37,443 bases of DNA from Candidatus Saccharimonadales bacterium (GTDB taxonomy: Bacteria; Patescibacteriota; Saccharimonadia; Saccharimonadales; JBPEXE01): NCBI GenBank assembly GCA_052031955.1, contig JBPEXE010000136.1:1-37443 (forward strand), read 5' to 3'. The first letter of the stretch is position 1. Each line of letters starts with the position of its first letter. The position numbers and the translations under genes were made by a program. Below are positions 4,487 to 18,240 of this stretch, one piece after another. The notes beneath the pieces were generated by a model, which made no database searches, had not been told where the DNA came from, and saw only the letters and a program-made list of their open reading frames with translations.

Positions 4487-5566
4487 ATGATTGAAGCAGG
4501 GTTGGTTGCGGTAATTATTATCCAGATTGTTATGATCTTTTTTTTGACGAGCTCGCGCGGCAAGAAGAACGACTCGGAGTCAGCGGCTCTGCTGAAAGCA
4601 GACATGACTAAGCTGTCGGACGACATGAACAAGCTGCGAGAGGGCTTGGGAGACAAACTGAGTGATGGGCTGTATAAAAATCAGGAAATGATGGTCAAAA
4701 GTCTGCAAAAGCAGTTTGCCCAAAGCTCCAAGCTAATCTCTGAAGTGACGACCAACTTGACCGAGATTAAGGAGTCTAACAAGCAAGTTGTTTCGGTGAC
4801 CGACGAGCTGAAGACATTGCAGAATATTTTGCAGAATCCAAAACAGCGCGGTGTGCTCGGCGAGTATTATCTACAGACCGTACTTGAAAACGTCCTGCCC
4901 GCCGATCGATTTGCCATGCAGTACAAATTTAAGGACGGCAACATTGTTGATGCCGTTATCTTCTTGGACAAAAATAAAATTCTGCCGGTTGACTCTAAGT
5001 TTAGTCTTGAGAACTACAACCGCTTTGTTGAGTCCAAGAGCAAAGTAGAGCGCGAGCGACTGGCGAAGCTCTTCAAAGCAGACTTAAAGGCTCGTATCGA
5101 TGAAACTGCGAAATACGTACGCCCGCAAGAAAACACGCTCGACCATGCTTTTATGTTTATACCCTCAGAGGCAATTTATTATGACTTGCTATCTGGTGAC
5201 AATAGTATTGGCGTCGGTGTGTCGTCACGCGATTTGCTTGAGTACGCCTTCCGTGAAAAGAAGGTTATTATTGTCAGCCCGACGACGTTCATGGCCTATC
5301 TCCAGACAGTTATACAGGGCTTACGCAGCCTGCAGATTGAAGAGAAGGCAAAAGATATTCAGAAACGAGTTGGCGAGCTTGGGCGCCACATCACGGTGTA
5401 TGAGGATTACATGCAAAAGCTTGGCAAATCGCTTGGCACGACCGTCAATCACTACAACAATGCTCACAAAGAACTTGGCAAGATTGATAAAGACGTTGTG
5501 CGTATCGCTGATGCATCACCCGGCGTCGAACCGCTTCTCGTGGATAGGCCTAGCGAGCAAGAATAA
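4487..5566 (+). CDS. rmuC: DNA recombination protein RmuC
   Basis: N-terminal TM helix, then a coiled-coil-like region, then NPKQRGVLGEYYLQTVLENVLP and FIPSEAIYYDLL, as in RmuC family proteins. Confidence 0.85.
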   Translation: MIEAGLVAVIIIQIVMIFFLTSSRGKKNDSESAALLKADMTKLSDDMNKLREGLGDKLSDGLYKNQEMMVKSLQKQFAQSSKLISEVTTNLTEIKESNKQVVSVTDELKTLQNILQNPKQRGVLGEYYLQTVLENVLPADRFAMQYKFKDGNIVDAVIFLDKNKILPVDSKFSLENYNRFVESKSKVERERLAKLFKADLKARIDETAKYVRPQENTLDHAFMFIPSEAIYYDLLSGDNSIGVGVSSRDLLEYAFREKKVIIVSPTTFMAYLQTVIQGLRSLQIEEKAKDIQKRVGELGRHITVYEDYMQKLGKSLGTTVNHYNNAHKELGKIDKDVVRIADASPGVEPLLVDRPSEQE

Positions 5567-6920
5567 GTTTCTTACGATGGATGTGGTAGCGATGGCGCAG
5601 CCATATGGCGAGCAATATGATGCCACCGGCAATGCCAAAGAACCAGCGGTTATCGAGCGGTTTTTCTATCACAGATACAGAAAAGTAGCGGGTATACTGA
5701 CAACCTGTATCATCGGCAATCGAAATACTGCCTGAGTAGTTGCCCGTGCGCTGATAGACATGGTGCAGGCTATAGCTTTGGGCCGAATTACGGTTAAAGC
5801 GTTCGGTTATCGAGTCGCCCCAGTCGAGGATGACTTCGTAGGGCGGTGTGCCGCTGACGCCGGTGATGTTTAGATCAATGCCATCGCCTTCGTCCACCCC
5901 CCAGTAACGGTACTCTGACAGCCAGAAACGATGTGTCGAACAGCGTTCCGGGTCGCCTGTAAACAGCACGGTTGTGAGGTTGGAAAAGTCGCTACACACA
6001 TCGCCGTCGCAGGCTATGGCACGAATATCTTGCGAGGTTGCGCTGACATCTAAATTGAAGAACCAATTTCCGTCGGCATTAGTAAATGTTGAGCCAATTG
6101 GCTCACCGTTGAGATAGATAATAATCTGGGTGTTTGGTGGGCCGGTGCCACGAATCAATATTGGTGTCTCACCAGATTCTATTTCGCCATCGATTGATGT
6201 GATGATTGGAGGGGTCAGTGCACCACTGTTGTTACCGGCATTAGACTGGACCGGCAGAATAATGAACTTCTCTTTGAGTGTTTGGTGTGAGGTGAGTCCA
6301 CCTTGTGAGCTGGTGGCTGTTGCGTTGTGCTCGCCAAAGTAATAGCCGGTGGTATCGACTGAAATTGAGTACCGCCCGTCAGGACCGCTTTGCGGACGCA
6401 ACACGGTCACGCCGCCATCAAGTGAAATCTCTACAATTGCATTTGGGATAGTTGAGCCCGAGAAAGTTACGAGTTCGCCTTCAGTAGCACTGACCGGCCT
6501 TGCAGCCAGTGTTGGTGGTAAGAAGTACTCAACAGCAGTGTCTGATTGTGCTCGCACATTGACAGTCTGCACAAGAGGATCCGACGTTAGTCCGTCACGG
6601 TCCTGGTATGTAATGCGGAATCTGTGTAGGCCGGCACGCATGGCGCTAAAATTCTTTTCAAATACGCCGTTGCTGTCAGCCAGCACGGTACCAACCAGGG
6701 CATTCCCGTCAACAATTTGCACAAAGGCGCCGGGTGAGGCAAATCCCTTAATTGTCAGCCTGGTGTTCGGAATCGTGAATTGGACAGGGGCAGAGGATGC
6801 AGAAACAGGACTATGTGCCACGAAAACAGGCAATAGCATAACAAGCACTGCGACTAGTATTTTAGAAATGTTTTTGAGCAAGCTTTTTGTTTTTTCGCTT
6901 ACGCTTTTATTGTAGCGCAA
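5550..6920 (-). CDS. surface protein: signal peptide, three Ig-like repeats, PKD-like domain, C-terminal TM anchor
   Basis: TTG start at 6918-6920, preceded by AGGAG. Signal peptide ILVAVLVMLLPVFVAHSPVSA. Three similar beta-sandwich-type segments (aa ~45-122, 140-215, 236-320). PKD-like LDWGDS...HHVYQRTGNYSGSISI. C-terminal WFFGIAGGIILLAIWL followed by RHRYHIHRKK. Last gene of the envelope locus. Confidence 0.7.
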   Translation of the reverse strand: MRYNKSVSEKTKSLLKNISKILVAVLVMLLPVFVAHSPVSASSAPVQFTIPNTRLTIKGFASPGAFVQIVDGNALVGTVLADSNGVFEKNFSAMRAGLHRFRITYQDRDGLTSDPLVQTVNVRAQSDTAVEYFLPPTLAARPVSATEGELVTFSGSTIPNAIVEISLDGGVTVLRPQSGPDGRYSISVDTTGYYFGEHNATATSSQGGLTSHQTLKEKFIILPVQSNAGNNSGALTPPIITSIDGEIESGETPILIRGTGPPNTQIIIYLNGEPIGSTFTNADGNWFFNLDVSATSQDIRAIACDGDVCSDFSNLTTVLFTGDPERCSTHRFWLSEYRYWGVDEGDGIDLNITGVSGTPPYEVILDWGDSITERFNRNSAQSYSLHHVYQRTGNYSGSISIADDTGCQYTRYFSVSVIEKPLDNRWFFGIAGGIILLAIWLRHRYHIHRKKLILAR

Positions 6921-6955: not shown

Positions 6956-7912
6956 CTAATTCTTACCGGCCAGGACCTTGAAGGCAGCGCCCAGGCGTGA
7001 GCGGAATTTCACAAGAATGAAGAGCAATACGATGACCACGACTGCGATTGGCAGGATGGTTTGCCATGGGAAGATAATGAAGGTCGTTTCAGCGTGAATT
7101 TGGTTATCATCTTCACCATACACGAGGTCAAGCTCGGCTGTGTAGCGGCCAACCGCAAAGCCAGGGTCGCTCCATTCGGTTTCAAGCTTCCGAATCGTGT
7201 CCGGTAGAACATTGCGCTCTTCAACCACAATTTTGGTTACTTCGTTGCCGAACATATTCTTGATTGTGATGGTGCCGGTCGGCTTGTAGTGGACATTCCC
7301 TGTGTTGTTCAGGCGGGTTTCAAACAGGATTGGTTTCTCGTTTGTCCAGAAGCTCTTGGTTGAGGCGAATGACTCAATACCGCCCTCTTCAACAATATCG
7401 CCAGCCACACTGGCTAAGATAACCGGTGCGAGACGTTGTACAACTGATGCGCCGGCGCCTTCGGTGGAGTCGCCTGGTACGGTTTCGAATGTGACAGTAC
7501 CATAGTGACCACCCGGTTCGGCGTTGCCTGGTACGGCTATCGTCACGGTAAAGTCCTGTGTGGTGTTTGGTGCCACGCTGACTGCTTCCGGCTCAACGGT
7601 AATCCATGCAGCCAATGAGAACGATGTCTCGTCTTCGGTTGGTACAGAGCCACCTTCTTCACCGGTTGGTACGATGTTTTGCGGTGTTGCGAGGAGTTCA
7701 ACGGGGAGGTCGCTGTTATTGGTGATGCGAATGGTGTTAACGATTGGTTCGTCACCAGGATTTGCGGTGACTTCAATGAGTTGCGGTGACATAGTCAGCG
7801 ATACTTGATCAGCCTCTTGTGCGCGGACAATCTGCCATGCGAATAACGAAATTAATGCTGCAGCCAACACAGCGACACTCAACACCCACCGAAAATTAAG
7901 CCGTGAAGTCAT
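6956..7912 (-). CDS. type-I membrane 'anchor 2', DUF916/DUF3324-like (CscA-type) or NEW3/CARDB-like ectodomain
   Basis: Signal peptide; VSLTMSPQLIEVTANPGD, AAWITVEPE, AEPGGHYGTVTFE, NNTGNVHYKP; C-terminal TM (ILPIAVVVIVLLFILV) with a 17-aa basic tail. Clear paralog of 9240..10790. Strong SD (TAAGGAGGG). Confidence 0.6.
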   Translation of the reverse strand: MTSRLNFRWVLSVAVLAAALISLFAWQIVRAQEADQVSLTMSPQLIEVTANPGDEPIVNTIRITNNSDLPVELLATPQNIVPTGEEGGSVPTEDETSFSLAAWITVEPEAVSVAPNTTQDFTVTIAVPGNAEPGGHYGTVTFETVPGDSTEGAGASVVQRLAPVILASVAGDIVEEGGIESFASTKSFWTNEKPILFETRLNNTGNVHYKPTGTITIKNMFGNEVTKIVVEERNVLPDTIRKLETEWSDPGFAVGRYTAELDLVYGEDDNQIHAETTFIIFPWQTILPIAVVVIVLLFILVKFRSRLGAAFKVLAGKN

Positions 7913-8064: not shown

Positions 8065-9123
8065 TTAGAATGATGCAACAACTGTGTAGACAATGTTGGT
8101 TGTGTAGGTACCTGCTTCGGTACTTGATGCTACACCAACTTGATGCGCTACTGTTGTGGTGCCTGCTTCGTCCGTCATTACCTCTTCGTTAGTCGTCGTG
8201 AAGCCAGCCCATTCACCACCTGGGTTTGTAAAGCGGTCGGCGCCATCGCCAACTGCGCTAAGTGATGAGTCGCTTGTTGCGTAGCCCCATGCTTCCGTGC
8301 CCACGGCTGGGAATGAAGTTGGAGCTGAGTTTGTGCCTGTATGGTTATCGATTGTGTCACTGTTAGAGTTTGTTAGGGATCCTGTGTGTCGAATATAGAC
8401 GGTATAGCCGCCGGATGCATTAGTCGTAACATCCAAGTTATGAGCTGAAACACCATTCTGTGATGCGGTCACGTCATTTAGATAGTCGATAGAAGATGCG
8501 GTCGATGCGTGAGTTGTATTGGTGCCAGAAACTGCGGTAGATGCTGCAACGCCGGATACAGTAAATGTCAGATTAGGGTCGATGGTCAAGGAAACTTGGG
8601 TACCGGTCTTGGTGGCAAATGCGATTACGACTGTGTCGACAGGGGTTGTACATGCATCATCAGTGTAGGTCGTGAGGGTCGCAAAGAATGTGTCGTCGGT
8701 ATTCGGGTTAGTCACACCGGTAAATACGAGTGTGCCGTTTGCTGCAGGTGTTTCACCTGGGTTGAATGTTATTTCGAGAAGACCATCGGTAGCAAAGTCT
8801 TCTGTCCAACTGGCCTCTGTAATCAGAGTTCCAGATGCGTCGAGTGCAGCTCCTGTGGTACTCATGCCTGCTGGTGTACCGCCAGAACCGTCTGCGTTGA
8901 CCGTGAATAGCGTTTGAATACATTGTATCGTCGTACCCGCATCATAGCCGGATGCGTCAACCGTGTATGTCACGCCAGTCTCACTTGGTCTTGGATCGCT
9001 CATCGTCACGGATGCTGAGCTTAGGGCTGCAACTGAAGCCACATTGCCAATCACCATTGCTGATGCCGCAAATCCAATAGCAAGACCACGAATTCGCTTT
9101 TTAAAGCGAGAGATCTTGAACAT
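8065..9123 (-). CDS. secreted Thr/Ser/Ala-rich protein with the shared C-terminal (WxL-like) docking domain; putative abundant surface subunit
   Basis: Signal peptide (RGLAIGFAASAMVIGNVASVAA). No TM and no LPXTG at the C-terminus. aa ~176-352 are homologous to the last ~169 aa of the giant protein. Excellent SD (AAGGAGAG) and its own downstream terminator. Confidence 0.65.
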   Translation of the reverse strand: MFKISRFKKRIRGLAIGFAASAMVIGNVASVAALSSASVTMSDPRPSETGVTYTVDASGYDAGTTIQCIQTLFTVNADGSGGTPAGMSTTGAALDASGTLITEASWTEDFATDGLLEITFNPGETPAANGTLVFTGVTNPNTDDTFFATLTTYTDDACTTPVDTVVIAFATKTGTQVSLTIDPNLTFTVSGVAASTAVSGTNTTHASTASSIDYLNDVTASQNGVSAHNLDVTTNASGGYTVYIRHTGSLTNSNSDTIDNHTGTNSAPTSFPAVGTEAWGYATSDSSLSAVGDGADRFTNPGGEWAGFTTTNEEVMTDEAGTTTVAHQVGVASSTEAGTYTTNIVYTVVASF

Positions 9124-9239: not shown

Positions 9240-10790
9240 TTATTTGGTTGTCTTCTTCTTTGCTGTGGATGACTTGGCTTTGGGTTTTGTTGTCTGGGTG
9301 GCTTTTTTTGCGGTTGATTTCTTAGTTGGCGCTTTGGTTGAAGTAGATTTCTTAGATGTCATGGCTGTTTTCTTTACAGGAGATTTCTTTGTAGTCGTCT
9401 TCTTTGCGGCCGGTTTTTTAGAGGCCCTATTCTTCTTAGCGACAGCTTTTTTTGTGGCTGCTTTTTGCTGAGCAGTGGTTTTCTTAGTCTGCTCAACAGG
9501 CTCAACGTCTTCATGGTCGCGTACTTGAATTGATTTTTTCGGACTCTGCTTGAGCGGTTCTTCATCCGGGTCAAAGAATGGCGATTTCTCACGCACAATG
9601 GTGCTGGCGCTGGTTTGGGTGATGAAGGTTGTACTGTCGTTATTATTCTTCACGCGCGTTTCGCTAATGACTTTCGGCTTTGGTGTGGGCGTTTGGTGTG
9701 TCATTGTCTTGATTTCATCAGACTCTTTTTTGTGAAGCATATCGGGTAGCCCAAAAATTGTTTTTGGCCGATTTTCTTCTTCAATCGCCCGCGCAACTTT
9801 TTCGAGTTCTTTGGTGTCCGGTGCTGATTCCGGTAACTTTTCGTCGCCACTGTAGCGCGTGTAATTCCGTCCGCTAAAGTTGGCATGCCCACGCAGCACC
9901 GCCATGGTGCGCGGGATATTCTTTCGCTTCACAAACAACAACAGGATACCCACAGCCAGGAATATCCAGACAGCGATTAACAAATAATTTGGCACAACCA
10001 GGAACTCATGCTCGGTGGTGGCGAGCGGAATACTTTGGTTGCCATAGGTTGCTTCAGCTCGAATTTGATACGTACCATAATCGACGTCTGCCAGCCACGT
10101 CGGAACTTCAAAGACTTTTTCGGTATTTGGCAGGATTAACTGTGGTTGCAGGCTGAAAATCTCAACAATTTCGCCATCTTTAGAAATAGTCACCCGCGGG
10201 GCAGGGAGGATGTGCACATTGCCAAGGTTTCGAATTCGGAAACTAAGATTAAGCTCATCGCCACGGGTTATGTTTGATATCGCCAAATCATCATCGACAA
10301 TTTCGGCACTCTCGTTTATGTCGCCCGACACGGTGATGAGCAGGGATGCGCTTAGCTGGGGAGAAACCGTTGTAGCGTCGCGTGGTGCATCAATAACTCC
10401 CGGCGTAAGCGTGATTAATGCGTAGTGCCCACCCGGGCTGGCTTCTTCTGGGATTGTGACGGTAAAGTTGAGGGTCTTGCGTTGCTCGGCATCGAAGGCA
10501 ATGGTTTTTTCTTCTAGCTCAATCCAGGCCGAAGCATCAAAGTTGCTACGGCGAGCTTGGTCGATGAAGTTATCAACCGGAACAAGTGCTTCGGTGCCCA
10601 AGAAACCTGCAATCGGCTCGTTGCCTGTGTTTTGGAAGGTGACCGTGCTGGAGAAACTTTGGCCGGGGTCGCCGGACAGCTCTATAATTGCCGGGCTGAC
10701 GGCCAGGCTCAAGTCGGCCTGCTGCTGAGCACGGACAGAGACGGGCGCCAAGAGGCTGGCAAGGAGTGTGAACAGGAGGAGCTTTTTCAT
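9240..10790 (-). CDS. type-I membrane 'anchor 1', DUF916/DUF3324-like ectodomain plus a 229-aa cytoplasmic tail with a Lys-rich end
   Basis: Signal peptide; LSLAVSPAIIELSGDPGQ, ASAWIELEE, ASPGGHYALITLT, RNLGNVHILP; TM at aa ~268-287 followed by KRK; tail aa 288-516. ATG 10788-10790 abuts the giant gene stop (10791-10793). Confidence 0.65.
   Translation of the reverse strand: MKKLLLFTLLASLLAPVSVRAQQQADLSLAVSPAIIELSGDPGQSFSSTVTFQNTGNEPIAGFLGTEALVPVDNFIDQARRSNFDASAWIELEEKTIAFDAEQRKTLNFTVTIPEEASPGGHYALITLTPGVIDAPRDATTVSPQLSASLLITVSGDINESAEIVDDDLAISNITRGDELNLSFRIRNLGNVHILPAPRVTISKDGEIVEIFSLQPQLILPNTEKVFEVPTWLADVDYGTYQIRAEATYGNQSIPLATTEHEFLVVPNYLLIAVWIFLAVGILLLFVKRKNIPRTMAVLRGHANFSGRNYTRYSGDEKLPESAPDTKELEKVARAIEEENRPKTIFGLPDMLHKKESDEIKTMTHQTPTPKPKVISETRVKNNNDSTTFITQTSASTIVREKSPFFDPDEEPLKQSPKKSIQVRDHEDVEPVEQTKKTTAQQKAATKKAVAKKNRASKKPAAKKTTTKKSPVKKTAMTSKKSTSTKAPTKKSTAKKATQTTKPKAKSSTAKKKTTK
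9243..9488 (-). repeat. low-complexity Lys/Thr/Ala/Ser-rich coding repeats (histone-H1-like tail)
   Basis: aa 435-516: TKKTTAQQKAATKKAVAKKNRASKKPAAKKTTTKKSPVKKTAMTSKKSTSTKAPTKKSTAKKATQTTKPKAKSSTAKKKTTK. At DNA level, gatttctt(a/t)g-type units recur imperfectly. Confidence 0.8.
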
Positions 10791-13700
10791 CTAAAACCTC
10801 GCCGTAATGTTATAGATTATCGTTGTTGTAAACTCGCCGATGGCTGTTACATTCGGAACCGTTACTCGATGTGTGATAATGAATGACTCGTTCACAATTG
10901 GGGTGCCGCTGACGGTCGAAGTGTGATCGGCAATAATATCACCCGGCGCACTGAGGCTCCACGGGGCATAGCAAGGCGGGTTGCCGCCACCGGCACATGG
11001 TGCGCCACCGAATTTATTTGAGCCCTGCACATCGGTGTCTGAACTGGTATAGCCAAAGCCAAAGTCACCCACCAGCCACTCGTCGGGACTGACATAGGTC
11101 CCACCGTCAAACATGCTGACATTATCTGTGCCATTTGTTAGCACGCCGGTCGCATAGCCACGCACCACGTAGCCGTTGTAGGCATTGGTGGATGTCGTAA
11201 TCGTCGTGTTGCCGGTGGCCGTGTAATTGTTGCCCGGGTTAAGATTTCCCAGGTCGAGTGCGCTGCCACTGAGTGAGAAGTTGAGGGTAGGTGCCACAAA
11301 CTGGCCATCTGATGAGATCACGCTTTCAGACCCAGCGTTATCAGTTGTTCGTATATTCACGAAATACGGTTGGGATGTTGTGAGTGTTAGTGATGAGTCA
11401 CTAAACGAAGTTGAGGTACCGACGCTTGTCCATGCCTTGACGTCTGTTGCCCCGGCGACGGTTCCAATCGAGTACTCGTAGCCAACCAAGCCTGATGATG
11501 AACTGTCAATATTCCAGTTTGCTTCGAGTGTATCTAGGGCGCCTGAGTTATATTCGACATCGACACCTACAGACGAGCCGTCATAAACCGTGCCGGTTGG
11601 CGGTGAAGAATCAATAGCAAAGTCACGCGCGCTCTCGGCATTTGCGCCAAAGCTTACCCAGCCTGAATATGCACCCAAACTATCTTTGGTGCGGGCTTGC
11701 CAATGGTACTCTTCACCATCGGTCAGACTGGATAACGTTACACTGGCAGCCACTGGGGAGCCGGTATAGGAAGCGCCGGTACCACAGCTGGTCTCGGAAT
11801 TGGTAAAAGGTGTGCCAAGTGGCTGTATTTCGACGCACAATGCAACTGAGTCGGGGTTATCTGAGTCTGAAACTTGCGCCGTGAAGACAACGCTTGATTC
11901 ATTCGTCCAGTTTCCGACGCTAATTGCATCGGTGTTGGTCTTTTCTTGCCCAAGTGAGCTCGGATTATCAGGAGCTGTGTTGTTGGTAGGTGACTGATAG
12001 AAAATCATATTGATGTAGGGTGGGAGGTGGTTTTCGGTAGAGAATCCGGTTACATCGATGCTGTGCGTGTGCACAGCCTCATCACCAACACTACCCGAGC
12101 GCCCATCAATCGTCTGATTGGCGGCGCCAGACGCGATTCCGGTCACATCACTATGCGTATGTGTGCTCGCACCACCAGTCGTGCCGTAGCCATTGGCGGC
12201 CTTGAAGAATCGTTGATACAAATCGTCGCCACCTGTGCACGACACGCATGTCCATGTGCCACCTGGATTATCAGTCCACATTGATATGAGGCCGCCAGGG
12301 ATCGAGGTGTCGGTCGTGGCCTGACCGAGAACCATCTCTATGAAAGGCGGTTGTTTGTCGACGCTTCCCGTATTGCCGCTAACGGTATGATCGTGCGAAT
12401 TTGTAGCTCGCGGGGCGGTACTACCGTTGGTGCGCGGACTTGCTGTCGTAGGGCTATTTGCACTCGACGTATTTCCGGTAATACTGTGGCTATCACTATT
12501 ATTCCCACCGGTCGTACCGATGGTATTCTCACCATAAGTAAAGTTTCCGTCCTGAGCACTGTATCGTGTGAAATCTGTCGGCATAGTTGTGGTCGTAAAG
12601 AGTCCAATCGCCCCGTTTGGAATCGTCGAAGGGGTGCCACCGTTAAACTGGATGATTTGTAGTTGTCGGTACGCCGGCAGGTTGCTCTCGGAGCTGATTA
12701 TTGGTGAGTAAGTGTGCGTGTGTGTTGGTGTAGACACGGTTGCACCTCCCTGATCTTCACTTGTAGCTGCCGTGCCAGTTGCGCTCACAGCGCCAGAGGC
12801 AGTATGGCTATGCGTTGCTGAGCCGCCGGTGCCGCCATAGGTCGCGGCTCCACGAATCATGCGTTGAAATGCTTCATCACCACCACTACACGAGATACAG
12901 GTCCATCCCGACGGAATCGATGCGCCATCGTACAACAAAATCATTTTGGGCGGTGGGGGAGGGGTTGTGAGTTCGGGAATTGCCGTATACGTATCGAGAG
13001 GCGTACCGTCACTCTTCACGATGCGTAGACAATAGGTTGTTTCTGACGGTGCGTTCACGTCAATCAAAGCAAAGTCCCATAGCCCATCCTCGCCAATCCC
13101 GATGCCAGACTGCGCGTTGGTGAAGTTGTTTGTTTCCTCGTATGTTTGGATGTTGACCGTATCTGCACCGTGCGTTGGATCGTTTGCGTTCACAGTAGCC
13201 GCTGCAGCGTCACTTATACCACTGTTGTCGTAATAGCGAATGTCCCCACTTGCAGTGCCGACGTCAAAGAACGTCTCGCCGGTGAAGGTCGGGTCACAGG
13301 TTCCACTTTGAACGGCATATTGTAGTTTAAAGTTTTCGCCACTTGAGCTTAATGCGACCTCCGAAATGTGCAGATTCATACGTAACCGGAAAGGGGTTCC
13401 TTGGGTCGGTGTTGTGATCGCTGTGTCCTGTGTATCGATTGGGGCGCCAACATCTGTTGAGACATCATTCTCATAGAATCGATAAGCACTCTGCTCATAC
13501 TTTGTGACTGGGTTGTACTTGGCGAAGTAGGCGTTAAAGTGGGGCGGCTCGTGGTTGAGGGTGCTATAACCGGTAACGCTCACGTTGTGGGTATGTACGT
13601 TTGAGGCGCCAGCCGTTCCGGATCGGGCCGAAGAAGTTGCTGATGGCTGGGTAGACACAATGCCCGTTGTGTTGGTGTGGGTGTGAGTGGCCGAGCCACC

Positions 13701-16400
13701 GGTCGCACCATACGTGGCAGCCGGCTTGATATATCTTCCGTTGAGCGGCTTACCGCTGCCGGAGTAATCATCCCAGCCGACAGGTGCGTCTGCATTCCAG
13801 ATGCCAACAAAACCTAGCGGTACCGGCTGAGCGCTGGCGTTGGTTGCCAAAACCATTTCCAGATATGGTGGCTCATTGCTGGCGCTAGCGCTCGTACCGC
13901 TAAATGTGTGCGTGTGTCCTGTTGATGCGCCATCTGTCTGTGTGCCACCGCCACGCGATGCCTGATCGGTGGCTGTACTTGCCGCTAGCAAACTGCCAGT
14001 AAACGAAGTGGTATGTGTATTCGAACCACCCGTGCTGCCAACAGTATTTTCTCCACGTATGTAGTTTCCGGTCTGCACGCCATACGACGTCCAACCGGCT
14101 GGCAGTGAGGTTGTGTCGAATACGCCCACCGTGCCAGCTGGCAACGTGGCGGGCATTCCGGTCGTGTCATAGCGAATCAAGCGCAGTTGTCGATAGGCAG
14201 GCAGGTTGTTAGACGGGTCAATCGTTACGTTGGCGGTATGGGTGTGAGCGACACCCGACACGGCATTACCGCTTCTGGGCTCTGTGGTTGCGAGTGTGGA
14301 TGCTGCAGCTGAGGCAGCCGCAGTATGGGTATGGGTTGCCGCACCGGCATTGCCCCCGTATGTCGCGGCGCCTTTCGCGAAGCGCTGGAAGAAGTCATTA
14401 CCGGTTGTGCATGATACGCAGCTCCAGCCCGCCGGCATCGCACCGGTGCCACTGTAGAAAACGATAAGATTTCCAACGGCGTCTCCGGCAATCTGCCATG
14501 ACCTTTGTTCGCTAAATTCTGGCGAGTTTATTTCTCCAACCACGAGCGGGCCGAGTGTGTAGAACTCCGGCGAAATATCAGGCGCGTCAAAAATATATCC
14601 GAGCGCAACGCTTTGACCAGCCGGAATATCGACATCCCAAGTGATAATCTGCTGATTGCCAACAATACTAATCTCATTGTAAGTTTGACTGTTGTTATCC
14701 GGAGCGATGTCGAAATCAACAGGCACAACTTCATGCACTCTACCCCGGTAGCCGTCTTTTGAGAAAACCTGCAGCCGCATTGGGTATTCAAGAATCGGGA
14801 AAACACGCGTTGGTCCGACACGGCTGACCTCGAACGAAGGGTCATCTATCACATCAAGACTTGAGTAGACTGTGTAGCTGCCATTTTGGGTGTTGGCTTC
14901 GAGCTCAAATGCATACGCACCCGTTTCTTCTAGCACTTGCTGAGCAATGTAATCAGGATCAATCTGCGCGCCATACTCCGGACAGGTTTCGGTGACTTGG
15001 ATCGAGTCGTTCTCAGTCGATAACGTAAAACTTCGGCTCGGAGTGGTAATGACAAGCCGAAGGTCGGCATCGCAGATGGTGCGTCCTTGCTCGTCAAGCA
15101 CGGCCATCTGAATCTGAGCGGTTTCATCAGGGCGATAGGATGACTTATCGAAGTTTAAGGCCAGCACACCCCAGACAAAGTCCTGGGTAACGGTCTGAGT
15201 GGTGCCACTCCCATCATCAAGCGATAACTCAATTGAGTATTCGCCGGGGTCAAGTGACTGTGGCACAATACCGGCATCTACCGTCCATATGTGTCGGTTG
15301 CTCGTATCTGATTTGATAAAGTCGCCTTCCACTGTTTGGCGTGCGACTTCATAGCCGTCGTTGTCGTAAATGGTAGCTTCGACGCTGAGTGGCAGTGAAC
15401 GGTCGCCGACGGTTTCGGTGGCTTTGCTTCGCAGCCCTTGCCAGATTCCGTCATTGGGGTCTTTAATGCCAACTTCAAACTGCAGGTCTGCCGGGTCAGA
15501 GATAGCGGGCTTGGCTTCACCGCGCGGTGAATTATCGACCGGATTAATCAGGTGAGCGCTGACCTCACGTTGTGGTCCGGCCTCATAGGTCCAGGCGAGA
15601 GACTCGGCAAAGACAGTGATTGAGTTCGAGTCTGCAACGGTTGCCAGGCGGAACGATAGGTCTTCCGATGATGAGATGAGTTCCACGGGCAAAGCAATAT
15701 CGTACACGGTTGTTTCAGTGGCCGTGAGTTCAGTGCCAAAGGTGTGCAGTGTATGCCACGATCCACCCCCGTCATTTGACATGCTGAGCTGCAGGAATGC
15801 ATCGGTGCTCACAATTGATGCATCCGGGGCGTACGCATTTGGTTCAAGCAACTCACCGCGATCATCCAGGCGCTCGTTGAGGATTGCGCCGTCTTGCAGC
15901 GTAGCGCTGATTGTTTCTGCACTGGAACTGTCGCTGACCACATCAATTTCCTGAGGGGCTTGATTCACGGCCTTGAGTACCACTCGCACACCATGATTGA
16001 GTCGAGAATGCTCTAGGATTGGCGAGTAGCCGCCACAGGTAATCACTCCTGCCGTTCCGGTGCTGACCGCTGCATTTTCGGTTGTGATGTCATCGCGAGT
16101 GGGACTGGTTCGTACCGATTGTTGCCCCGTTGTGTGTTCGGGGTATTGCCATTCAGGACCGCTCGAACATTGGGTTGGAGCGACAGCAAAGATAGAGCCT
16201 TCGTCGCCAACGTCGGCAACAATACGAGGTGCTGCCAGGAGCGAAATAAAACCTAAAATAAGCACACTGTAAACCACCCGCTCGCGAACGTTCAGCGGAG
16301 TGATGATTGTGCTCATTTTGCGCTTTATTTTTCTAGGGGTGGCCGCGACTCGTGCGGTGATTCCCTTGCTGCGCTTTGGCATGCGTGAAACCCCATTCAC
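10791..16400 (-). CDS. giant secreted surface protein (1869 aa) with 2 x 3 tail-collar/HxH modules and a shared C-terminal docking domain
   Basis: Uninterrupted 5.6-kb ORF. Basic N-terminus then a hydrophobic signal/anchor (VVYSVLILGFISLLAAPRIVA). The start is ambiguous: GTG 16400, ATG 16382 or ATG 16316. Ig/MG-like region (FVWGVLALNFDKSSYRPDETAQIQMAVLD). Two module triplets with a spacer domain and a PPPPP linker. Two beta-sandwich modules (EEYHWQARTKDSLGAYSGW; SGLVGYEYSIGT). C-terminal ~169 aa homologous to the end of the 352-aa protein. I found no LPXTG. Confidence 0.85.
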   Translation of the reverse strand: MNGVSRMPKRSKGITARVAATPRKIKRKMSTIITPLNVRERVVYSVLILGFISLLAAPRIVADVGDEGSIFAVAPTQCSSGPEWQYPEHTTGQQSVRTSPTRDDITTENAAVSTGTAGVITCGGYSPILEHSRLNHGVRVVLKAVNQAPQEIDVVSDSSSAETISATLQDGAILNERLDDRGELLEPNAYAPDASIVSTDAFLQLSMSNDGGGSWHTLHTFGTELTATETTVYDIALPVELISSSEDLSFRLATVADSNSITVFAESLAWTYEAGPQREVSAHLINPVDNSPRGEAKPAISDPADLQFEVGIKDPNDGIWQGLRSKATETVGDRSLPLSVEATIYDNDGYEVARQTVEGDFIKSDTSNRHIWTVDAGIVPQSLDPGEYSIELSLDDGSGTTQTVTQDFVWGVLALNFDKSSYRPDETAQIQMAVLDEQGRTICDADLRLVITTPSRSFTLSTENDSIQVTETCPEYGAQIDPDYIAQQVLEETGAYAFELEANTQNGSYTVYSSLDVIDDPSFEVSRVGPTRVFPILEYPMRLQVFSKDGYRGRVHEVVPVDFDIAPDNNSQTYNEISIVGNQQIITWDVDIPAGQSVALGYIFDAPDISPEFYTLGPLVVGEINSPEFSEQRSWQIAGDAVGNLIVFYSGTGAMPAGWSCVSCTTGNDFFQRFAKGAATYGGNAGAATHTHTAAASAAASTLATTEPRSGNAVSGVAHTHTANVTIDPSNNLPAYRQLRLIRYDTTGMPATLPAGTVGVFDTTSLPAGWTSYGVQTGNYIRGENTVGSTGGSNTHTTSFTGSLLAASTATDQASRGGGTQTDGASTGHTHTFSGTSASASNEPPYLEMVLATNASAQPVPLGFVGIWNADAPVGWDDYSGSGKPLNGRYIKPAATYGATGGSATHTHTNTTGIVSTQPSATSSARSGTAGASNVHTHNVSVTGYSTLNHEPPHFNAYFAKYNPVTKYEQSAYRFYENDVSTDVGAPIDTQDTAITTPTQGTPFRLRMNLHISEVALSSSGENFKLQYAVQSGTCDPTFTGETFFDVGTASGDIRYYDNSGISDAAAATVNANDPTHGADTVNIQTYEETNNFTNAQSGIGIGEDGLWDFALIDVNAPSETTYCLRIVKSDGTPLDTYTAIPELTTPPPPPKMILLYDGASIPSGWTCISCSGGDEAFQRMIRGAATYGGTGGSATHSHTASGAVSATGTAATSEDQGGATVSTPTHTHTYSPIISSESNLPAYRQLQIIQFNGGTPSTIPNGAIGLFTTTTMPTDFTRYSAQDGNFTYGENTIGTTGGNNSDSHSITGNTSSANSPTTASPRTNGSTAPRATNSHDHTVSGNTGSVDKQPPFIEMVLGQATTDTSIPGGLISMWTDNPGGTWTCVSCTGGDDLYQRFFKAANGYGTTGGASTHTHSDVTGIASGAANQTIDGRSGSVGDEAVHTHSIDVTGFSTENHLPPYINMIFYQSPTNNTAPDNPSSLGQEKTNTDAISVGNWTNESSVVFTAQVSDSDNPDSVALCVEIQPLGTPFTNSETSCGTGASYTGSPVAASVTLSSLTDGEEYHWQARTKDSLGAYSGWVSFGANAESARDFAIDSSPPTGTVYDGSSVGVDVEYNSGALDTLEANWNIDSSSSGLVGYEYSIGTVAGATDVKAWTSVGTSTSFSDSSLTLTTSQPYFVNIRTTDNAGSESVISSDGQFVAPTLNFSLSGSALDLGNLNPGNNYTATGNTTITTSTNAYNGYVVRGYATGVLTNGTDNVSMFDGGTYVSPDEWLVGDFGFGYTSSDTDVQGSNKFGGAPCAGGGNPPCYAPWSLSAPGDIIADHTSTVSGTPIVNESFIITHRVTVPNVTAIGEFTTTIIYNITARF
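11994..12944 (-). repeat. intragenic protein repeat: triplet B of tail-collar/HxH modules (aa 1153-1469)
   Basis: B1 GWTCISC..YGGTGGSATHSHT..PTHTHTYSP..NLPAYRQLQIIQF. B2 GTTGGNNSDSHS..NSHDHTVSG..KQPPFIEMVLG. B3 TWTCVSC..YGTTGGASTHTHS..AVHTHSIDV..HLPPYINMIFYQ. Confidence 0.8.
13515..14480 (-). repeat. intragenic protein repeat: triplet A of tail-collar/HxH modules (aa ~641-962)
   Basis: A1 GWSCVSC..YGGNAGAATHTHT..VAHTHTANV..NNLPAYRQLRLIRY. A2 GSTGGSNTHTTS..TGHTHTFSG..NEPPYLEMVLA. A3 YGATGGSATHTHT..NVHTHNVSV..HEPPHFNAYFAKY. Confidence 0.8.
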
Positions 16401-16899: not shown

Positions 16900-18240
16900 T
16901 CAATCTTTTGCTTTGCTCGGAGTGATATGGGTTGATGCGAGGTCGAGCGCCAGGGCTGCTGTCCAGGAGAAAGGCGCAATGCCAGCGCCAAAACCATCAA
17001 TCGGGGAGAAGTACTCGCTAAAGCCGGCCTTCTCGACCATTTGTAGGGTTCGATGTTTTAAGTCTTCGGCCTCCTCGGTAAAGCCATAGCGTTGCAAGCC
17101 GTCAATAATCAGCCAGTTGGTGTTTACCCAGGTTGGCCCCTGCCAGTAGCGGCGATGGTTAAAGTACGGTGAGTTGAGTGGCACGCTCGGCACGGGGAAG
17201 TTAGCGCCGAATTGCTCGTCGTCTTTGATGAGTTTTACCAACTCTTTGGCGCGCGTCTTGGTAATGGCGCCGGAATAGAGGGGAAGGAGAGTAGACACAG
17301 TCGGCTCCTTAATGTGCTCCCTCGTTATGAACAGGCGAGAGTAGTACATGCCAGTCTCCTCATCCCACAGCTCATCGAGTGCCTTAGAGGCCTTATTCAT
17401 ATATGACAATGTGTGGCGGGGGATGGTTTCGCCAATCTCTTCGGCAATGTCTTTGACGTGCTGGTTGGCACGAATCAAAACCGAGTTAAAGAAGAGATCC
17501 TCAATAATAAAGTGCGAATGCAACAGGATGCGGTTTGTTTCGTACTGCTTGCGGCGTAGTCGTCGGACAACACTGAACAGCATCAAGCCTTCGACTGTGG
17601 TCATGCGTTCATCGGGGGGCACCTGTCGCGTGTCCTTGCGGAATCGCTCAATAATCTTGTCGGCGCTCGACCACTCAACCATCTTTATCCAGAGTGGCTT
17701 TTGGTGTTCATGCATCATGCGCATCCAGGGAGGGGTGTTATCAAGGCCTGTCTCCCAAGGATGGATTAAGACCACCAGCCCTTCGGCATGCGGATTGCGT
17801 TCACGATACAACCATTCATGGTAGGCAAGTAGATTTGGCCAGACTTTCCGGTACCAAGCGCGTCGATCGGCTGCTTTCATGTGCGACCCAACCCGAACAA
17901 TCGCCTCAGCCAACATTGGCGGTTGAGTGATGCCACTGGTTGCGACATCGTCTGGAGCATAAATCGACTGTCGGCTATCCCACATGTCAGGATTGTGATG
18001 GCCCTTGGCGTCAGTGAAGATCATGTTTGGAATCATGCCGTTGGTCCATTGGCCACGGAAGAGCGATAAAATCTCTTGTTGAGCCCGGCGTTGGGAGTAA
18101 TGTGCGATGCCGATTGCTGTGAAGCAACTGTCCCACAGCCATTGATGTGGATAGAGGTCGGGCGCGGGACGCGTCCACTTGCCGACGTCGTTATATTTAA
18201 GGACGTCTTTAGCGCCGGCGATGAGCTCGTCATGTTTCAT
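16900..18240 (-). CDS. (alpha/alpha)6-barrel glycoside hydrolase, GH63/MGH1-like (glucosyl-/mannosylglycerate hydrolase-like)
   Basis: 446 aa. YPHQWLWDSCF, HPWETGLDNTPPW and YWQGPTWVNTNWLIIDGLQRYG resemble conserved GH63/trehalase-like blocks. Substrate not inferable. Confidence 0.65.
   Translation of the reverse strand: MKHDELIAGAKDVLKYNDVGKWTRPAPDLYPHQWLWDSCFTAIGIAHYSQRRAQQEILSLFRGQWTNGMIPNMIFTDAKGHHNPDMWDSRQSIYAPDDVATSGITQPPMLAEAIVRVGSHMKAADRRAWYRKVWPNLLAYHEWLYRERNPHAEGLVVLIHPWETGLDNTPPWMRMMHEHQKPLWIKMVEWSSADKIIERFRKDTRQVPPDERMTTVEGLMLFSVVRRLRRKQYETNRILLHSHFIIEDLFFNSVLIRANQHVKDIAEEIGETIPRHTLSYMNKASKALDELWDEETGMYYSRLFITREHIKEPTVSTLLPLYSGAITKTRAKELVKLIKDDEQFGANFPVPSVPLNSPYFNHRRYWQGPTWVNTNWLIIDGLQRYGFTEEAEDLKHRTLQMVEKAGFSEYFSPIDGFGAGIAPFSWTAALALDLASTHITPSKAKD

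What the first reader, a model, noticed from the sequence alone, without database searches (positions are those of the whole stretch)
10794..11300. Shared C-terminal domain on the giant and the 352-aa protein: a Tyr-for-Trp ('YxV/YxI') relative of the WxL domain?
Seen in sequence: the last 169 aa of the giant (nt 10794-11300) align block by block with aa ~176-352 of the 352-aa protein (nt 8068-8598). The matching blocks are:
- L(N/T)F(S/T)(L/V)SG
- GY(V/T)V (TNAYNGYVVRG versus NASGGYTVYIRH)
- LTN(G/S)x(D/S)
- (F/W)GY(T/A)(S/T)SD(T/S)
- W(S/A)(L/G)
- a near-identical C-terminus, G(E/T)(F/Y)TTxI(I/V)Yxx(T/V)A(R/S)F-COOH

The N-terminal parts of the two proteins are unrelated.

Established knowledge: WxL domains are C-terminal, non-covalent cell-surface targeting modules with two W-x-L motifs, one in a G-W-x-L context and one near the C-terminus.

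Inference: the GY-x-V and Y-x-(I/V) strings here sit where those motifs would be. This may be a divergent WxL-type targeting domain used as a common docking handle.
Basis: partly seen in the sequence, partly recalled or inferred. Interest (0 to 1): 0.7.

Follow-up and report, generated by a model that had tools for sequence, protein, structure and literature searches.

The report
Pilin domain shared by pilin and giant adhesin
The domain shared by the giant protein and the 352-aa protein is real and is best read as the strand-accepting pilin domain of the recently described 'Pam' pilus of Saccharibacteria, not a recognisable WxL domain, although the neighbouring membrane-anchored proteins are relatives of the WxL-interacting proteins of Gram-positive bacteria.

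Summary
The last ~170 aa of the giant and aa ~176-352 of the 352-aa protein are homologous (BLASTP E=2e-6; profile-profile 98.9-99.2%, E about 1e-17 to 1e-19).

Both match NCBIfam NF058581, the C-terminal domain of Pam pilus pilins, over its full length (E=1.9e-6 and 7e-5, below the curated cut-off). The five-gene minus-strand operon matches the Pam operon described in Ca. Mycosynbacter amalyticus:
- a giant with a C-terminal pilin domain
- a two-domain pilin (352 aa)
- two membrane-anchored PapD-like chaperone paralogs (516 and 318 aa)
- a PamR-like membrane anchor (456 aa)

The giant lacks the 4-residue core of the pilin's linker strand. That strand is mimicked by the N-terminus of the PamR-like protein. 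I therefore infer that the giant is an acceptor-only tip adhesin.

Direct WxL membership is not supported: no Pfam WxL hit in 84 family members, and profile-profile probability 2.7% (P=0.017). The context, however, is WxL-like. The 318/516-aa proteins are homologs of WxLIP (DUF916-DUF3324-TM): hhalign 97-98%, and the top PDB hits by sequence and by fold are E. faecium WxLIP 9I1Y/9I25, followed by chaperone-usher chaperones.

This is a new variant of a known kind. The Pam-WxL link appears in none of the papers I could search.

The parts
10791..16400 (-). Giant surface protein (1869 aa from a GTG; a more likely start is the ATG at 16316, M29, followed by a signal-peptide-like stretch). It is a candidate tip adhesin. 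It has three GW(S/T)C(V/I)SC CxxC modules with His-Thr-rich strings, then an FN3-like module, then the shared C-terminal domain.
   Evidence: Only weak Pfam hits (MG2 E=4e-6) and no PHROG family. Syntenic giants of 740-2470 aa occur in related loci.
10794..11297 (-). The giant's C-terminal Pam-pilin-type domain (168 aa, VAPTLNFSLSG...ITARF). The NF058581 match covers 10794-11270. It lacks the 'x-L-T-I-[DE]' core of the pilin linker strand. It carries a Cys pair, C1802/C1810.
   Evidence: NF058581 E=1.9e-6, 28 bits, profile 2-148/148. hhalign to the pilin domain 99.2%. Spacing analysis. 1801 cluster representatives match the domain profile, and nearly all of the top 150 carry it at the extreme C-terminus of 700-4000-aa proteins.
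9240..10790 (-). 516-aa chaperone-like paralog. It has a signal peptide, a two-Ig-domain ectodomain (aa ~20-260), a TM helix (aa 263-290) and a ~230-aa Lys-rich cytoplasmic tail. It is a WxLIP/PapD-like protein, the counterpart of PamC/PamD.
   Evidence: Paralog of the 318-aa family (hhalign 100%, E=5e-44) and match to WxLIP at 97.0%, E=8e-11. TM segment. HC2-like tail hits.
8065..9123 (-). 352-aa two-domain pilin (PamB-like): signal peptide, N-terminal beta-sandwich (about 8614-9024), linker, and C-terminal acceptor domain. It has an invariant Cys pair, C68/C158.
   Evidence: 172 homologs of ~350 aa, all in Saccharibacteria. AF2 model pLDDT 90.1 with two beta domains. NF058581 E=7e-5 for aa 215-352, and 71 of 84 family members hit it.
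8572..8604 (-). Pilin linker, the putative donor strand (aa 174-184, TQVSLTIDPN). It is the most conserved stretch of the family ('LTIDPTLTF'), and it is unstructured with the lowest pLDDT in the monomer model.
   Evidence: Nearly invariant V177, L179, P183, L185, F187. DSSP coil for 171-184 and pLDDT 79 for block 171-180. The donated linker is described in the paper.
8068..8571 (-). Pilin C-terminal domain (aa 185-352), homologous to the giant's C-terminal domain.
6956..7912 (-). 318-aa chaperone-like protein: signal peptide or N-terminal helix, two Ig-like domains, and a C-terminal TM helix (aa 283-302). It is a homolog of WxLIP (DUF916-DUF3324-TM) with a PapD/FimC-like fold.
   Evidence: AF2 pLDDT 92.3. 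Foldseek top hits 9i1y_A and 9i25_C (E=8e-11), then CfaA, CsuC, FimC, Caf1M. HMM against PDB E=1.1e-4 to EfmWxLIP1. hhalign 97.3%, E=1.7e-11. PF06030 in 36 of 54 members.
5550..6920 (-). 456-aa PamR-like protein: signal peptide, Ig-like (Big_6) domains, and a C-terminal TM helix (aa 422-444). It is the putative pilus terminator and membrane anchor.
   Evidence: NF058578 CPR_pilus_PamR E=2.7e-17 (62.6 bits, below the cut-off of 300) and Big_6 E=1.3e-16. TM segment. Role as proposed in the paper.
6762..6791 (-). N-terminal strand of the mature PamR-like protein (APVQFTIPNT). It mimics the pilin linker segment V-x-L-T-I-D-P.
   Evidence: The same P-V-x-L-T-[IV]-P motif directly follows the signal peptide in the window protein and in most of the 12 related loci, in degenerate form in two.

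Best explanation
The shared C-terminal domain is the C-terminal domain of Pam-type pilins of Saccharibacteria (CPR).

**What the domain is.** It is an incomplete Ig-like beta-barrel whose groove is completed by a beta-strand donated by another protein.

**The parts of the operon.**
- The 352-aa protein is the polymerising pilin. It has an N-terminal beta-sandwich, a conserved linker strand (V-x-L-T-I-D-P) that it donates to the subunit ahead of it, and the acceptor domain.
- The giant carries only the acceptor domain at its extreme C-terminus and lacks the core of the donor linker. It can therefore be joined to a pilin but cannot itself be added behind another subunit. That places its ~1700-aa adhesin-like body at the distal tip of the filament.
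- The 318- and 516-aa proteins are membrane-anchored PapD/WxLIP-like chaperones. They are proposed to hold the open domain by strand complementation until exchange.
- The 456-aa PamR-like protein is proposed to cap the base with its N-terminal linker-mimic strand and to tether the fibre by its TM helix.

**Shown versus inferred.**
- Shown here: homology of the two domains; their match to the Pam pilin domain model; the operon composition; the chaperone fold and its homology to WxLIP; and the motif differences between pilin, giant and PamR-like proteins.
- Taken from Troman et al. 2026: donor-strand assembly.
- Inferred: the tip position of the giant, and which chaperone serves which client.
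For: **Domain homology.** BLASTP E=2e-6. hhalign 98.9% and 99.2%.

**Match to the Pam pilin domain model NF058581.**
- Giant domain: E=1.9e-6, covering profile positions 2-148 of 148.
- Pilin: E=7e-5.
- 18 of 21 and 71 of 84 family members match.

**Operon composition.**
- PamR model NF058578 matches the 456-aa protein at E=2.7e-17.
- The five-gene synteny is conserved in the related Saccharibacteria loci wherever the contig extends far enough.
- All homologs come from Saccharibacteria/CPR.
- Troman et al. 2026 (doi 10.64898/2026.03.03.709456) describe a two-domain pilin, a donated linker, TM-anchored PapD-like chaperones, and PamR.

**Structure models.**
- The AF2 pilin model has two beta domains with a disordered linker at aa 171-184.
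- The AF2 318-aa model (pLDDT 92.3) hits WxLIP and the chaperone-usher chaperones CfaA, CsuC, FimC and Caf1M.

**Evidence for an acceptor-only giant.**
- The DG-to-P.L.F spacing is 8 residues in 89 of 120 pilins and 4 in giants. None of 137 giants has the pilin-type linker motif.
- PamR-like N-termini carry the P-V-x-L-T-I-P mimic.
- The domain sits at the extreme C-terminus in nearly all of the top 150 representatives, most of which are 700-4000 aa long.
Against: - NCBIfam scores are below the curated cut-offs (28 and 22.9 bits against 55; PamR 62.6 against 300), so this is a divergent branch.
- I could not obtain the M. amalyticus PamA, PamB or PamT sequences or structures for direct comparison. 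They were not among the genome-contig hits and not in the PDB copy.
- The preprint's tip subunit PamT is a single small domain, and no giant tip is described there.
- The giant retains the 'P-T-L-x-F' half of the linker region. Without a complex model I cannot prove which residues are donated in trans.
- Foldseek of the whole pilin model gave only generic two-Ig-domain hits.
Confidence: 0.72

Rival explanations
1. The domain is a divergent WxL domain, with Tyr in place of Trp. It holds both proteins non-covalently on the cell wall (peptidoglycan), as proposed for WxL proteins of Lactobacillales and Bacillales.
For: - The cluster layout parallels WxL clusters: a small protein plus a large protein with the same C-terminal domain, plus DUF916/DUF3324-type TM proteins.
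- The chaperone-like proteins are WxLIP homologs.
- A greedy alignment is colinear, with GY-x-V over GW-x-L and I-I-Y over T-W-x-L.
- The hhalign score of 21.3 exceeds all 40 block-shuffled controls, whose maximum is 19.2.
- The WxL HMM scores pilin domains a median 4.7 bits, against 0.5 for reversed and 0.2 for shuffled sequences.
Against: - No Pfam WxL hit in 84 members.
- hhalign probability is 2.7-4%, P about 0.01-0.02, confined to the last strand in default mode.
- Both Trp residues that define the motif are absent.
- There is no LPXTG partner in the operon.
- The Pam homologs of this domain were seen by cryo-EM as filament subunits, not wall-bound modules.
Confidence: 0.12
2. Chaperone-anchored display. 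The giant is not part of a pilus. It is held permanently on the cell surface by stable strand complementation from the membrane-anchored 516-aa (or 318-aa) WxLIP-like protein, as in the crystallised WxLIP:long-WxL complex.
For: - PDB 9I25 is a stable WxLIP:long-WxL complex, and its WxLIP chain is the closest solved relative of the 318-aa protein.
- The 516-aa gene lies immediately downstream of the giant.
- Published AF2 models show a WxLIP strand completing the WxL sandwich.
Against: - The same operon encodes a polymerising pilin with a conserved donor linker and a PamR-like cap.
- A 1700-aa adhesin tethered directly at the membrane would have to cross the wall.
- The Pam preprint's predictions place acceptor-only subunits at the tip.
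Confidence: 0.13
3. The giant is an ordinary, or occasional, in-line pilus subunit that both donates and accepts a strand, so that it decorates the shaft.
For: The giant retains a conserved V-A-P-T-L-x-F strand that aligns to the second half of the pilin linker region.
Against: - The 4-residue 'L-T-I-[DE]' core, which is also the part mimicked by the PamR-like N-terminus, is missing in 137 of 137 giants.
- The retained strand is modelled as an ordered strand of the domain itself in the pilin monomer: E185-191, block pLDDT 91.
Confidence: 0.06

Closest known systems
Pam pilus of Candidate Phyla Radiation bacteria (PamA/PamB pilins, PamC/PamD chaperones, PamT tip, PamR anchor; Troman et al., bioRxiv 2026, doi 10.64898/2026.03.03.709456; NCBIfam NF058581, NF058578)
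   Same: - The same C-terminal pilin domain family by HMM.
- The same two-domain pilin with a conserved linker.
- Two TM-anchored PapD-like chaperone paralogs.
- A PamR-like TM protein with an N-terminal strand.
- A Saccharibacteria host.
- Paired cysteines.
   Different: - This is a minimal five-gene operon with one pilin type, and no separate PamA, PamE or PamT.
- The acceptor-only domain is fused to the end of a 1869-aa protein instead of being a single-domain PamT.
- Scores are below NCBIfam's curated cut-offs.
- The preprint mentions only a co-localised 'tail fibre-like protein'. It does not mention WxL or DUF916 at all.
WxL / csc clusters of Bacillota (small WxL, large WxL with C-terminal WxL, WxLIP = DUF916-DUF3324-TM, small LPXTG protein; Siezen 2006; Hassan & Williamson 2022, 2023; PDB 9I1Y, 9I25)
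   Same: - The TM-anchored two-Ig-domain protein is homologous (97-98% hhalign, and top PDB hits by both sequence and fold).
- Both have a small protein plus a large protein sharing a strictly C-terminal ~170-aa beta domain.
- In both, a strand from the TM protein is predicted to complete the open sandwich.
   Different: - No W-x-L motifs and no Pfam WxL match. Domain-level homology is unproven (P about 0.01-0.02).
- No LPXTG protein or sortase.
- The WxLIP signature NQIDKxxxYFDLK is absent.
- WxL proteins are described as peptidoglycan-bound platforms, not filaments.
Chaperone-usher pili of Gram-negative bacteria (FimH/PapG two-domain tip adhesins; FimC/PapD, CfaA, CsuC, Caf1M chaperones)
   Same: - An incomplete Ig-like pilin domain completed by a donated strand.
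- An adhesin with a receptor-binding part followed by an acceptor-only pilin domain at the tip.
- A two-domain chaperone fold (Foldseek E about 1e-9 to 1e-8, TM 0.5-0.55 on the target).
   Different: - No usher and no outer membrane.
- The chaperones are membrane-anchored.
- The donor strand is an inter-domain linker, not an N-terminal extension.
- The pilin has an extra N-terminal domain.
- The tip protein is about 6 times larger than FimH.

Membership tests
Pam pilin C-terminal domain (NCBIfam NF058581 CPR_Pam_pilin_C) | Significant, full-length match to the family HMM | tested here: met
   Giant domain E=1.9e-6, profile positions 2-148 of 148. Pilin E=7e-5, positions 8-148 of 148. 18 of 21 and 71 of 84 family members match.
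Pam pilin C-terminal domain (NCBIfam NF058581 CPR_Pam_pilin_C) | Score reaches NCBI's curated cut-off (55 bits) | tested here: not met
   28.0 and 22.9 bits. This is a divergent branch of the superfamily, so it would not be auto-named by the model.
Pam pilus system | Operon with TM-anchored PapD/FimC-like chaperones and a PamR-like TM protein | tested here: met
   The 318-aa model hits CfaA, CsuC, FimC and Caf1M, and has a C-terminal TM helix. The 516-aa protein is a paralog. NF058578 PamR matches at E=2.7e-17, with a TM segment.
Pam pilus system | [quoted passage not shown] | tested here: met
   AF2 model with pLDDT 90.1. Strands 36-170, coil linker 171-184, strands 185-350. Linker conservation. 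The 'truncated' state of the fold could not be inspected because no coordinates are available.
Pam pilus system | Restricted to CPR (Saccharimonadia/Microgenomatia) | tested here: met
   All named homologs are Candidatus Saccharibacteria/Saccharimonadales.
Pam pilus system | Assembly into filaments by donor-strand exchange | not testable with these tools
   This needs multimer prediction, cryo-EM or biochemistry. Only the motif logic is available.
WxL domain (Pfam PF13731) | Two conserved Trp-x-Leu motifs | tested here: not met
   The sequence has G-Y-V-V and I-I-Y-N (giant), and G-Y-T-V and I-V-Y-T (pilin) at the aligned positions.
WxL domain (Pfam PF13731) | Match to the Pfam model, or a significant profile-profile match to WxL domains | tested here: not met
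   0 of 84 members at E<=10. hhalign 2.7%, P=0.017, 24 columns. There is a weak excess over decoys only.
WxL domain (Pfam PF13731) | Same fold as a solved WxL domain (9I25 chain A) | not testable with these tools
   9I25_A was identified as a WxL domain, but no pairwise structure comparison of a domain-only model was available.
WxL cluster (csc-type) | At least one WxLIP (DUF916-DUF3324-TM) gene next to genes for a small and a large protein sharing the C-terminal domain | tested here: met
   WxLIP homology. Gene order giant-516-352-318.
WxL cluster (csc-type) | Small LPXTG protein (frequent, but not obligatory) | tested here: not met
   No LPXTG sorting signal in any real ORF of the window.
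WxLIP (PF06030 DUF916 + PF11797 DUF3324 + TM), for the 318/516-aa proteins | Pfam gathering score for PF06030, and the NQIDKxxxYFDLK signature | tested here: not met
   The window protein scores 18.2 bits against 27.3, and the signature region is deleted in the alignment. Superfamily-level homology is nevertheless strong: 36 of 54 members at E<=0.01, and NCBI names P0196 a DUF916 protein.
Chaperone-usher pilus | Outer-membrane usher | tested here: not met
   No usher-like gene among the five operon genes or the flanking genes. The organism belongs to a lineage described as lacking an outer membrane.

The most novel reading that the evidence does not exclude
The Pam operons of CPR bacteria and the WxL (csc) clusters of Bacillota may be two branches of one ancient, usher-less, donor-strand surface-assembly system of bacteria without an outer membrane.

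On this reading:
- The WxL domain is the Trp-bearing homolog of the Pam pilin acceptor domain.
- WxLIP is a membrane-anchored PapD-like chaperone.
- The short N-terminal strand plus Pro-rich linker of small WxL proteins is a donor strand.
- WxL proteins therefore assemble by strand complementation or exchange, rather than simply sticking to peptidoglycan.

The chaperone half of this claim is shown here. The domain half is only weakly indicated.
Probability: 0.35. Interest if true: 0.85.

Novelty: new variant of a known kind. Interest (0 to 1): 0.62.

Why it matters
**Host attachment in Saccharibacteria.** Saccharibacteria live attached to host bacteria, and what decides host attachment is largely unknown. 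If the giant, highly variable proteins that end in an acceptor-only Pam pilin domain sit at pilus tips, they are the obvious candidates for host-recognition adhesins. More than 130 clusters at 50% identity appear among the top hits alone. The conserved C-terminal handle gives a simple way to find them in any CPR genome.

**The WxL system.** The demonstrated homology between the Pam chaperones and WxLIP links a newly discovered CPR pilus to the long-enigmatic WxL surface-protein clusters of enterococci, listeriae and lactobacilli. It makes a concrete hypothesis directly testable with structures that already exist (9I25 and the Pam cryo-EM models): that WxL proteins are assembled or held by donor-strand complementation.

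Tried and rejected
- **Pfam and NCBIfam on the full-length giant.** These gave nothing useful for the C-terminus. Only the excised domain hit NF058581.
- **PHROGs on the giant.** No family, so the 'tail-fibre-like' label could not be checked.
- **HMM searches of the domain and pilin profiles against PDB sequences.** No hits. The Pam structures are not in that copy.
- **Foldseek of the whole pilin model.** Only generic two-Ig-domain hits with low TM scores (integrins, MSCRAMMs, cohesins, FimH, Saf).
- **The search for related loci in genome contigs.** This returned 11 Saccharibacteria MAG loci but not M. amalyticus, so there was no direct comparison with the characterised Pam proteins.
- **hhalign in global mode.** The output was meaningless.
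- **Enlarging the domain profile with 147 more giants.** This did not raise the WxL score.
- **NCBIfam on the 318-aa family.** No PamC or PamD model hit.
- **Chance or compositional similarity between the two domains.** Rejected.
- **Chaperone-WxLIP match as a generic beta-sandwich artefact.** Rejected. The real score is 105 against 20.8 for the reversed profile and at most 27.8 in 20 block shuffles. Matches to other beta domains of the operon were at most 4% probability.
- **Literature.** No paper in the library links WxL with Saccharibacteria or with donor-strand exchange.
Full report
**Observation**

The window carries a minus-strand operon of five genes:
- a giant ORF, 10791-16400, 1869 aa
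- a 516-aa ORF, 9240-10790
- a 352-aa ORF, 8065-9123
- a 318-aa ORF, 6956-7912
- a 456-aa ORF, 5550-6920

The coordinates in the finding are correct. Nt 10794-11300 encode the last 169 aa of the giant, and nt 8068-8598 encode aa 176-352 of the 352-aa protein.

- BLASTP of the giant's last 202 aa against the 352-aa protein gives one HSP: 33.5 bits, E=2e-6, 27% identity over 138 aa, ending at both C-termini.
- I collected 172 homologs of the 352-aa protein and 23 homologs of the giant's C-terminus, and aligned them (A1 and A2).
- Profile-profile comparison of the two families gives probability 98.9%, E=3.3e-17 over 223 columns.
- Domain-only alignments give 99.2%, E=3e-19.

**What the domain is**

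Pfam gives nothing for either domain. NCBIfam does.
- The 352-aa protein matches NF058581 'CPR_Pam_pilin_C, Pam pilus system pilin subunit' over aa 215-352 (profile positions 8-148 of 148, E=7e-5).
- The 456-aa protein matches NF058578 'pilus system RbmA-like protein PamR' (E=2.7e-17).
- The excised giant C-terminus matches NF058581 end to end (profile positions 2-148 of 148, E=1.9e-6, 28 bits).
- 18 of 21 members of the giant-domain family and 71 of 84 members of the combined set also match.
- All scores are below NCBI's curated cut-offs (55 and 300 bits), so this is a divergent branch.

The models derive from Troman et al., bioRxiv 2026 (doi 10.64898/2026.03.03.709456). That study used cryo-EM on filaments of the saccharibacterium Ca. 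Mycosynbacter amalyticus. Its main points are:
[quoted passage not shown] - The operon also encodes PamC and PamD, which are FimC/PapD-like and carry a C-terminal TM helix.
- It encodes PamT, an acceptor-only single domain proposed to sit at the tip.
- It encodes PamR, which is RbmA-like, has a TM helix, and has an N-terminal strand proposed to cap the base.

**Fit of the window to that system**

- All named homologs are Candidatus Saccharibacteria/Saccharimonadales.
- The order giant, ~300-500-aa protein, ~350-aa protein, ~315-aa protein, ~450-aa Big_6 protein is conserved in the related loci wherever the contig extends far enough. The flanks are the same as in the window: a trehalase-like GH upstream, and RmuC, HAD and CarS downstream.
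- AF2 on the 352-aa protein (84-sequence alignment, pLDDT 90.1) gives two beta domains. These are separated by an unstructured, lower-confidence segment at aa 171-184, which contains the most conserved motif of the family, 'LTIDPTLTF'.
- The 318- and 516-aa proteins are paralogs (hhalign 100%, E=5e-44). Each has a signal sequence, a two-domain ectodomain and a TM helix.
- The AF2 model of the 318-aa protein (pLDDT 92.3) finds the chaperone-usher chaperones CfaA, CsuC, FimC, SfaE, Caf1M and FaeE at E about 1e-9 to 1e-8, with TM 0.5-0.55 on the target.

**Role of the giant (inference)**

Three sequence observations point to an acceptor-only subunit.
1. Pilins read DG-x-L-V-x-L-T-I-[DE]-P-T-L-T-F, with 8 residues between DG and P.L.F in 89 of 120 pilins. 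Giants read DG-Q-x-V-A-P-T-L-x-F, with 4 residues in every giant where the pattern is found. None of 137 giants has the pilin-type motif.
2. The mature N-terminus of the PamR-like protein is P-V-x-L-T-[IV]-P in the window and in most of the 12 related loci. This is a mimic of exactly the segment that giants lack, and which is disordered in the pilin monomer model.
3. The retained 'P-T-L-x-F' is modelled as an ordered strand of the domain itself (E185-191).

A profile of the domain alone (A4) finds 1801 cluster representatives at E<=1e-3. Nearly all of the top 150 carry the domain at the extreme C-terminus, and most are proteins of 700-4000 aa.

The simplest reading is that the giant is joined to the first pilin through its groove and forms the distal tip. 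This is like FimH or PapG in chaperone-usher pili, or like a PamT fused to a very large adhesin. The preprint mentions only that a 'tail fibre-like protein' co-localises with pam operons. It does not describe this fusion.

**The WxL question**

Domain-level membership fails.
- No member of the 84-sequence set hits Pfam WxL at E<=10.
- I fetched eight real WxL clusters from plasmids of Bacillus, Enterococcus, Listeria, Latilactobacillus, Companilactobacillus and Melissococcus and built WxL and WxLIP alignments from them.
- The domain profile against 19 WxL domains gives probability 2.7-4%, P=0.01-0.02. In default mode the match covers only the last strand.
- A greedy alignment is colinear and places LTIDPTLTF over G-x-L-t-I-D-y, GY-x-V over GW-x-L, and I-I-Y-T over L-T-W-t-L.
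- The real score (21.3) exceeds all 40 block-shuffled controls, whose maximum is 19.2.
- A WxL HMM scores pilin domains a median 4.7 bits. The comparisons are 0.5 for reversed sequences, 0.2 for shuffled sequences and -0.2 for the N-terminal domain.

This is a weak, consistent signal. It is not proof.

The neighbours are a different matter.
- The 318/516-aa family matches WxLIP (DUF916-DUF3324-TM) across both domains. hhalign gives 98.1%, E=7.8e-14 and 97.3%, E=1.7e-11 with the session tool.
- Controls: reversed profile score 20.8, shuffles at most 27.8, real score 105.
- PF06030 is found in 36 of 54 family members, best E=1.4e-7.
- Ten of the 120 listed homologs already carry a precomputed PF06030 annotation. 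One of them is named a DUF916 protein by NCBI.
- The family HMM's top PDB hits are EfmWxLIP1 (9i25_C and 9i1y_A, E=1e-4).
- Foldseek's top hits are 9i1y_A and 9i25_C (E=8e-11), ahead of the chaperone-usher chaperones.
- Hassan et al. 2023 (PMC10599100) reported that AF2 predicts a WxLIP strand filling a gap in the WxL sandwich. PDB 9I25 is a WxLIP:long-WxL complex whose chain A is a WxL domain.

The operon is a relative of WxL clusters. The shared domain does serve as a common handle that most likely contacts the 318/516-aa ectodomains. Its best-supported identity, however, is a Pam pilin acceptor domain, and its likely job is polymer assembly, not wall binding.

**Novelty and limits**

- The Pam system is known from a 2026 preprint and from NCBIfam.
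- The giant fusion, the motif logic, and the Pam-WxLIP homology appear in none of the papers I could search.
- I could not compare directly with the M. amalyticus proteins or structures.
- I could not predict complexes, and I could not superpose a domain-only model on 9I25 chain A.
- The tip role of the giant and the chaperone-client pairs are inferences.

Noticed in passing
window 9240-9930 (-), aa ~291-516 of the 516-aa protein: After its TM helix, the 516-aa chaperone paralog has a ~230-aa Lys/Thr/Ala-rich, presumably cytoplasmic tail with weak histone-H1/HC2-like hits. The orthologs in L001 and L002 share it. Other loci have 305-373-aa versions without it.
   Followed up: partly
window 6762-6791 (-), and the PamR-like genes of L001-L013: The mature N-terminus of the PamR-like proteins carries a conserved P-V-x-L-T-[IV]-P strand that mimics the pilin linker V-x-L-T-I-D-P. 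This fits the capping role proposed for PamR.
   Followed up: partly
window 10791-16400 (-), giant aa 661/664, 1168/1171 and 1385/1388: There are three repeated modules, GW(S/T)C(V/I)SC (CxxC), each followed by His-Thr-rich 'THTHT' strings. The protein has 16 cysteines in all, apparently in pairs. No Pfam or PHROG family matches.
   Followed up: no
P0264-P0410 (representatives found with the domain profile): All 147 C-terminal domains end with an aromatic last residue (125 Tyr, 22 Phe), as do the window's two proteins (Phe).
   Followed up: partly
L009 9992-11047 and 11300-12355; L012 3-3749 and 3947-9007: Some related loci carry two tandem pilin genes or two giant genes, each giant with the C-terminal domain. 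This suggests exchangeable shaft or tip subunits.
   Followed up: no
L014-L021 (WxL clusters on Bacillota plasmids): Small WxL proteins have a short beta-strand after the signal peptide (for example GVVEFIP, ATVKFKAG), then a Pro/Asp-rich flexible linker before the WxL domain. This looks like the N-terminal donor extension of chaperone-usher pilins.
   Followed up: no
P0397 aa 161-283, P0368 aa 163-282, P0291 aa 294-419, P0345 aa 401-511: A WxL HMM gives weak hits to N-terminal regions of some giants rather than to their C-terminal domain (best i-E 0.0018 in a 581-sequence set). It is unclear whether this is a further related module or a composition effect.
   Followed up: no
window 6956-7912 (-), aa 145-163 of the 318-aa protein: The only low-confidence loop inside the folded part of the model (pLDDT 74-86) precedes the conserved 'GAxVxQxxGxLIL' strand. 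It aligns to the WxLIP region containing the hairpin that is reported to insert into WxL, so it is a candidate complementing strand.
   Followed up: no
window 16900-18240 (-), and L001 and L002 upstream of the giants: A trehalase/MGH1-like glycoside hydrolase gene is conserved immediately upstream of the giant gene in the window and in two distant relatives.
   Followed up: no
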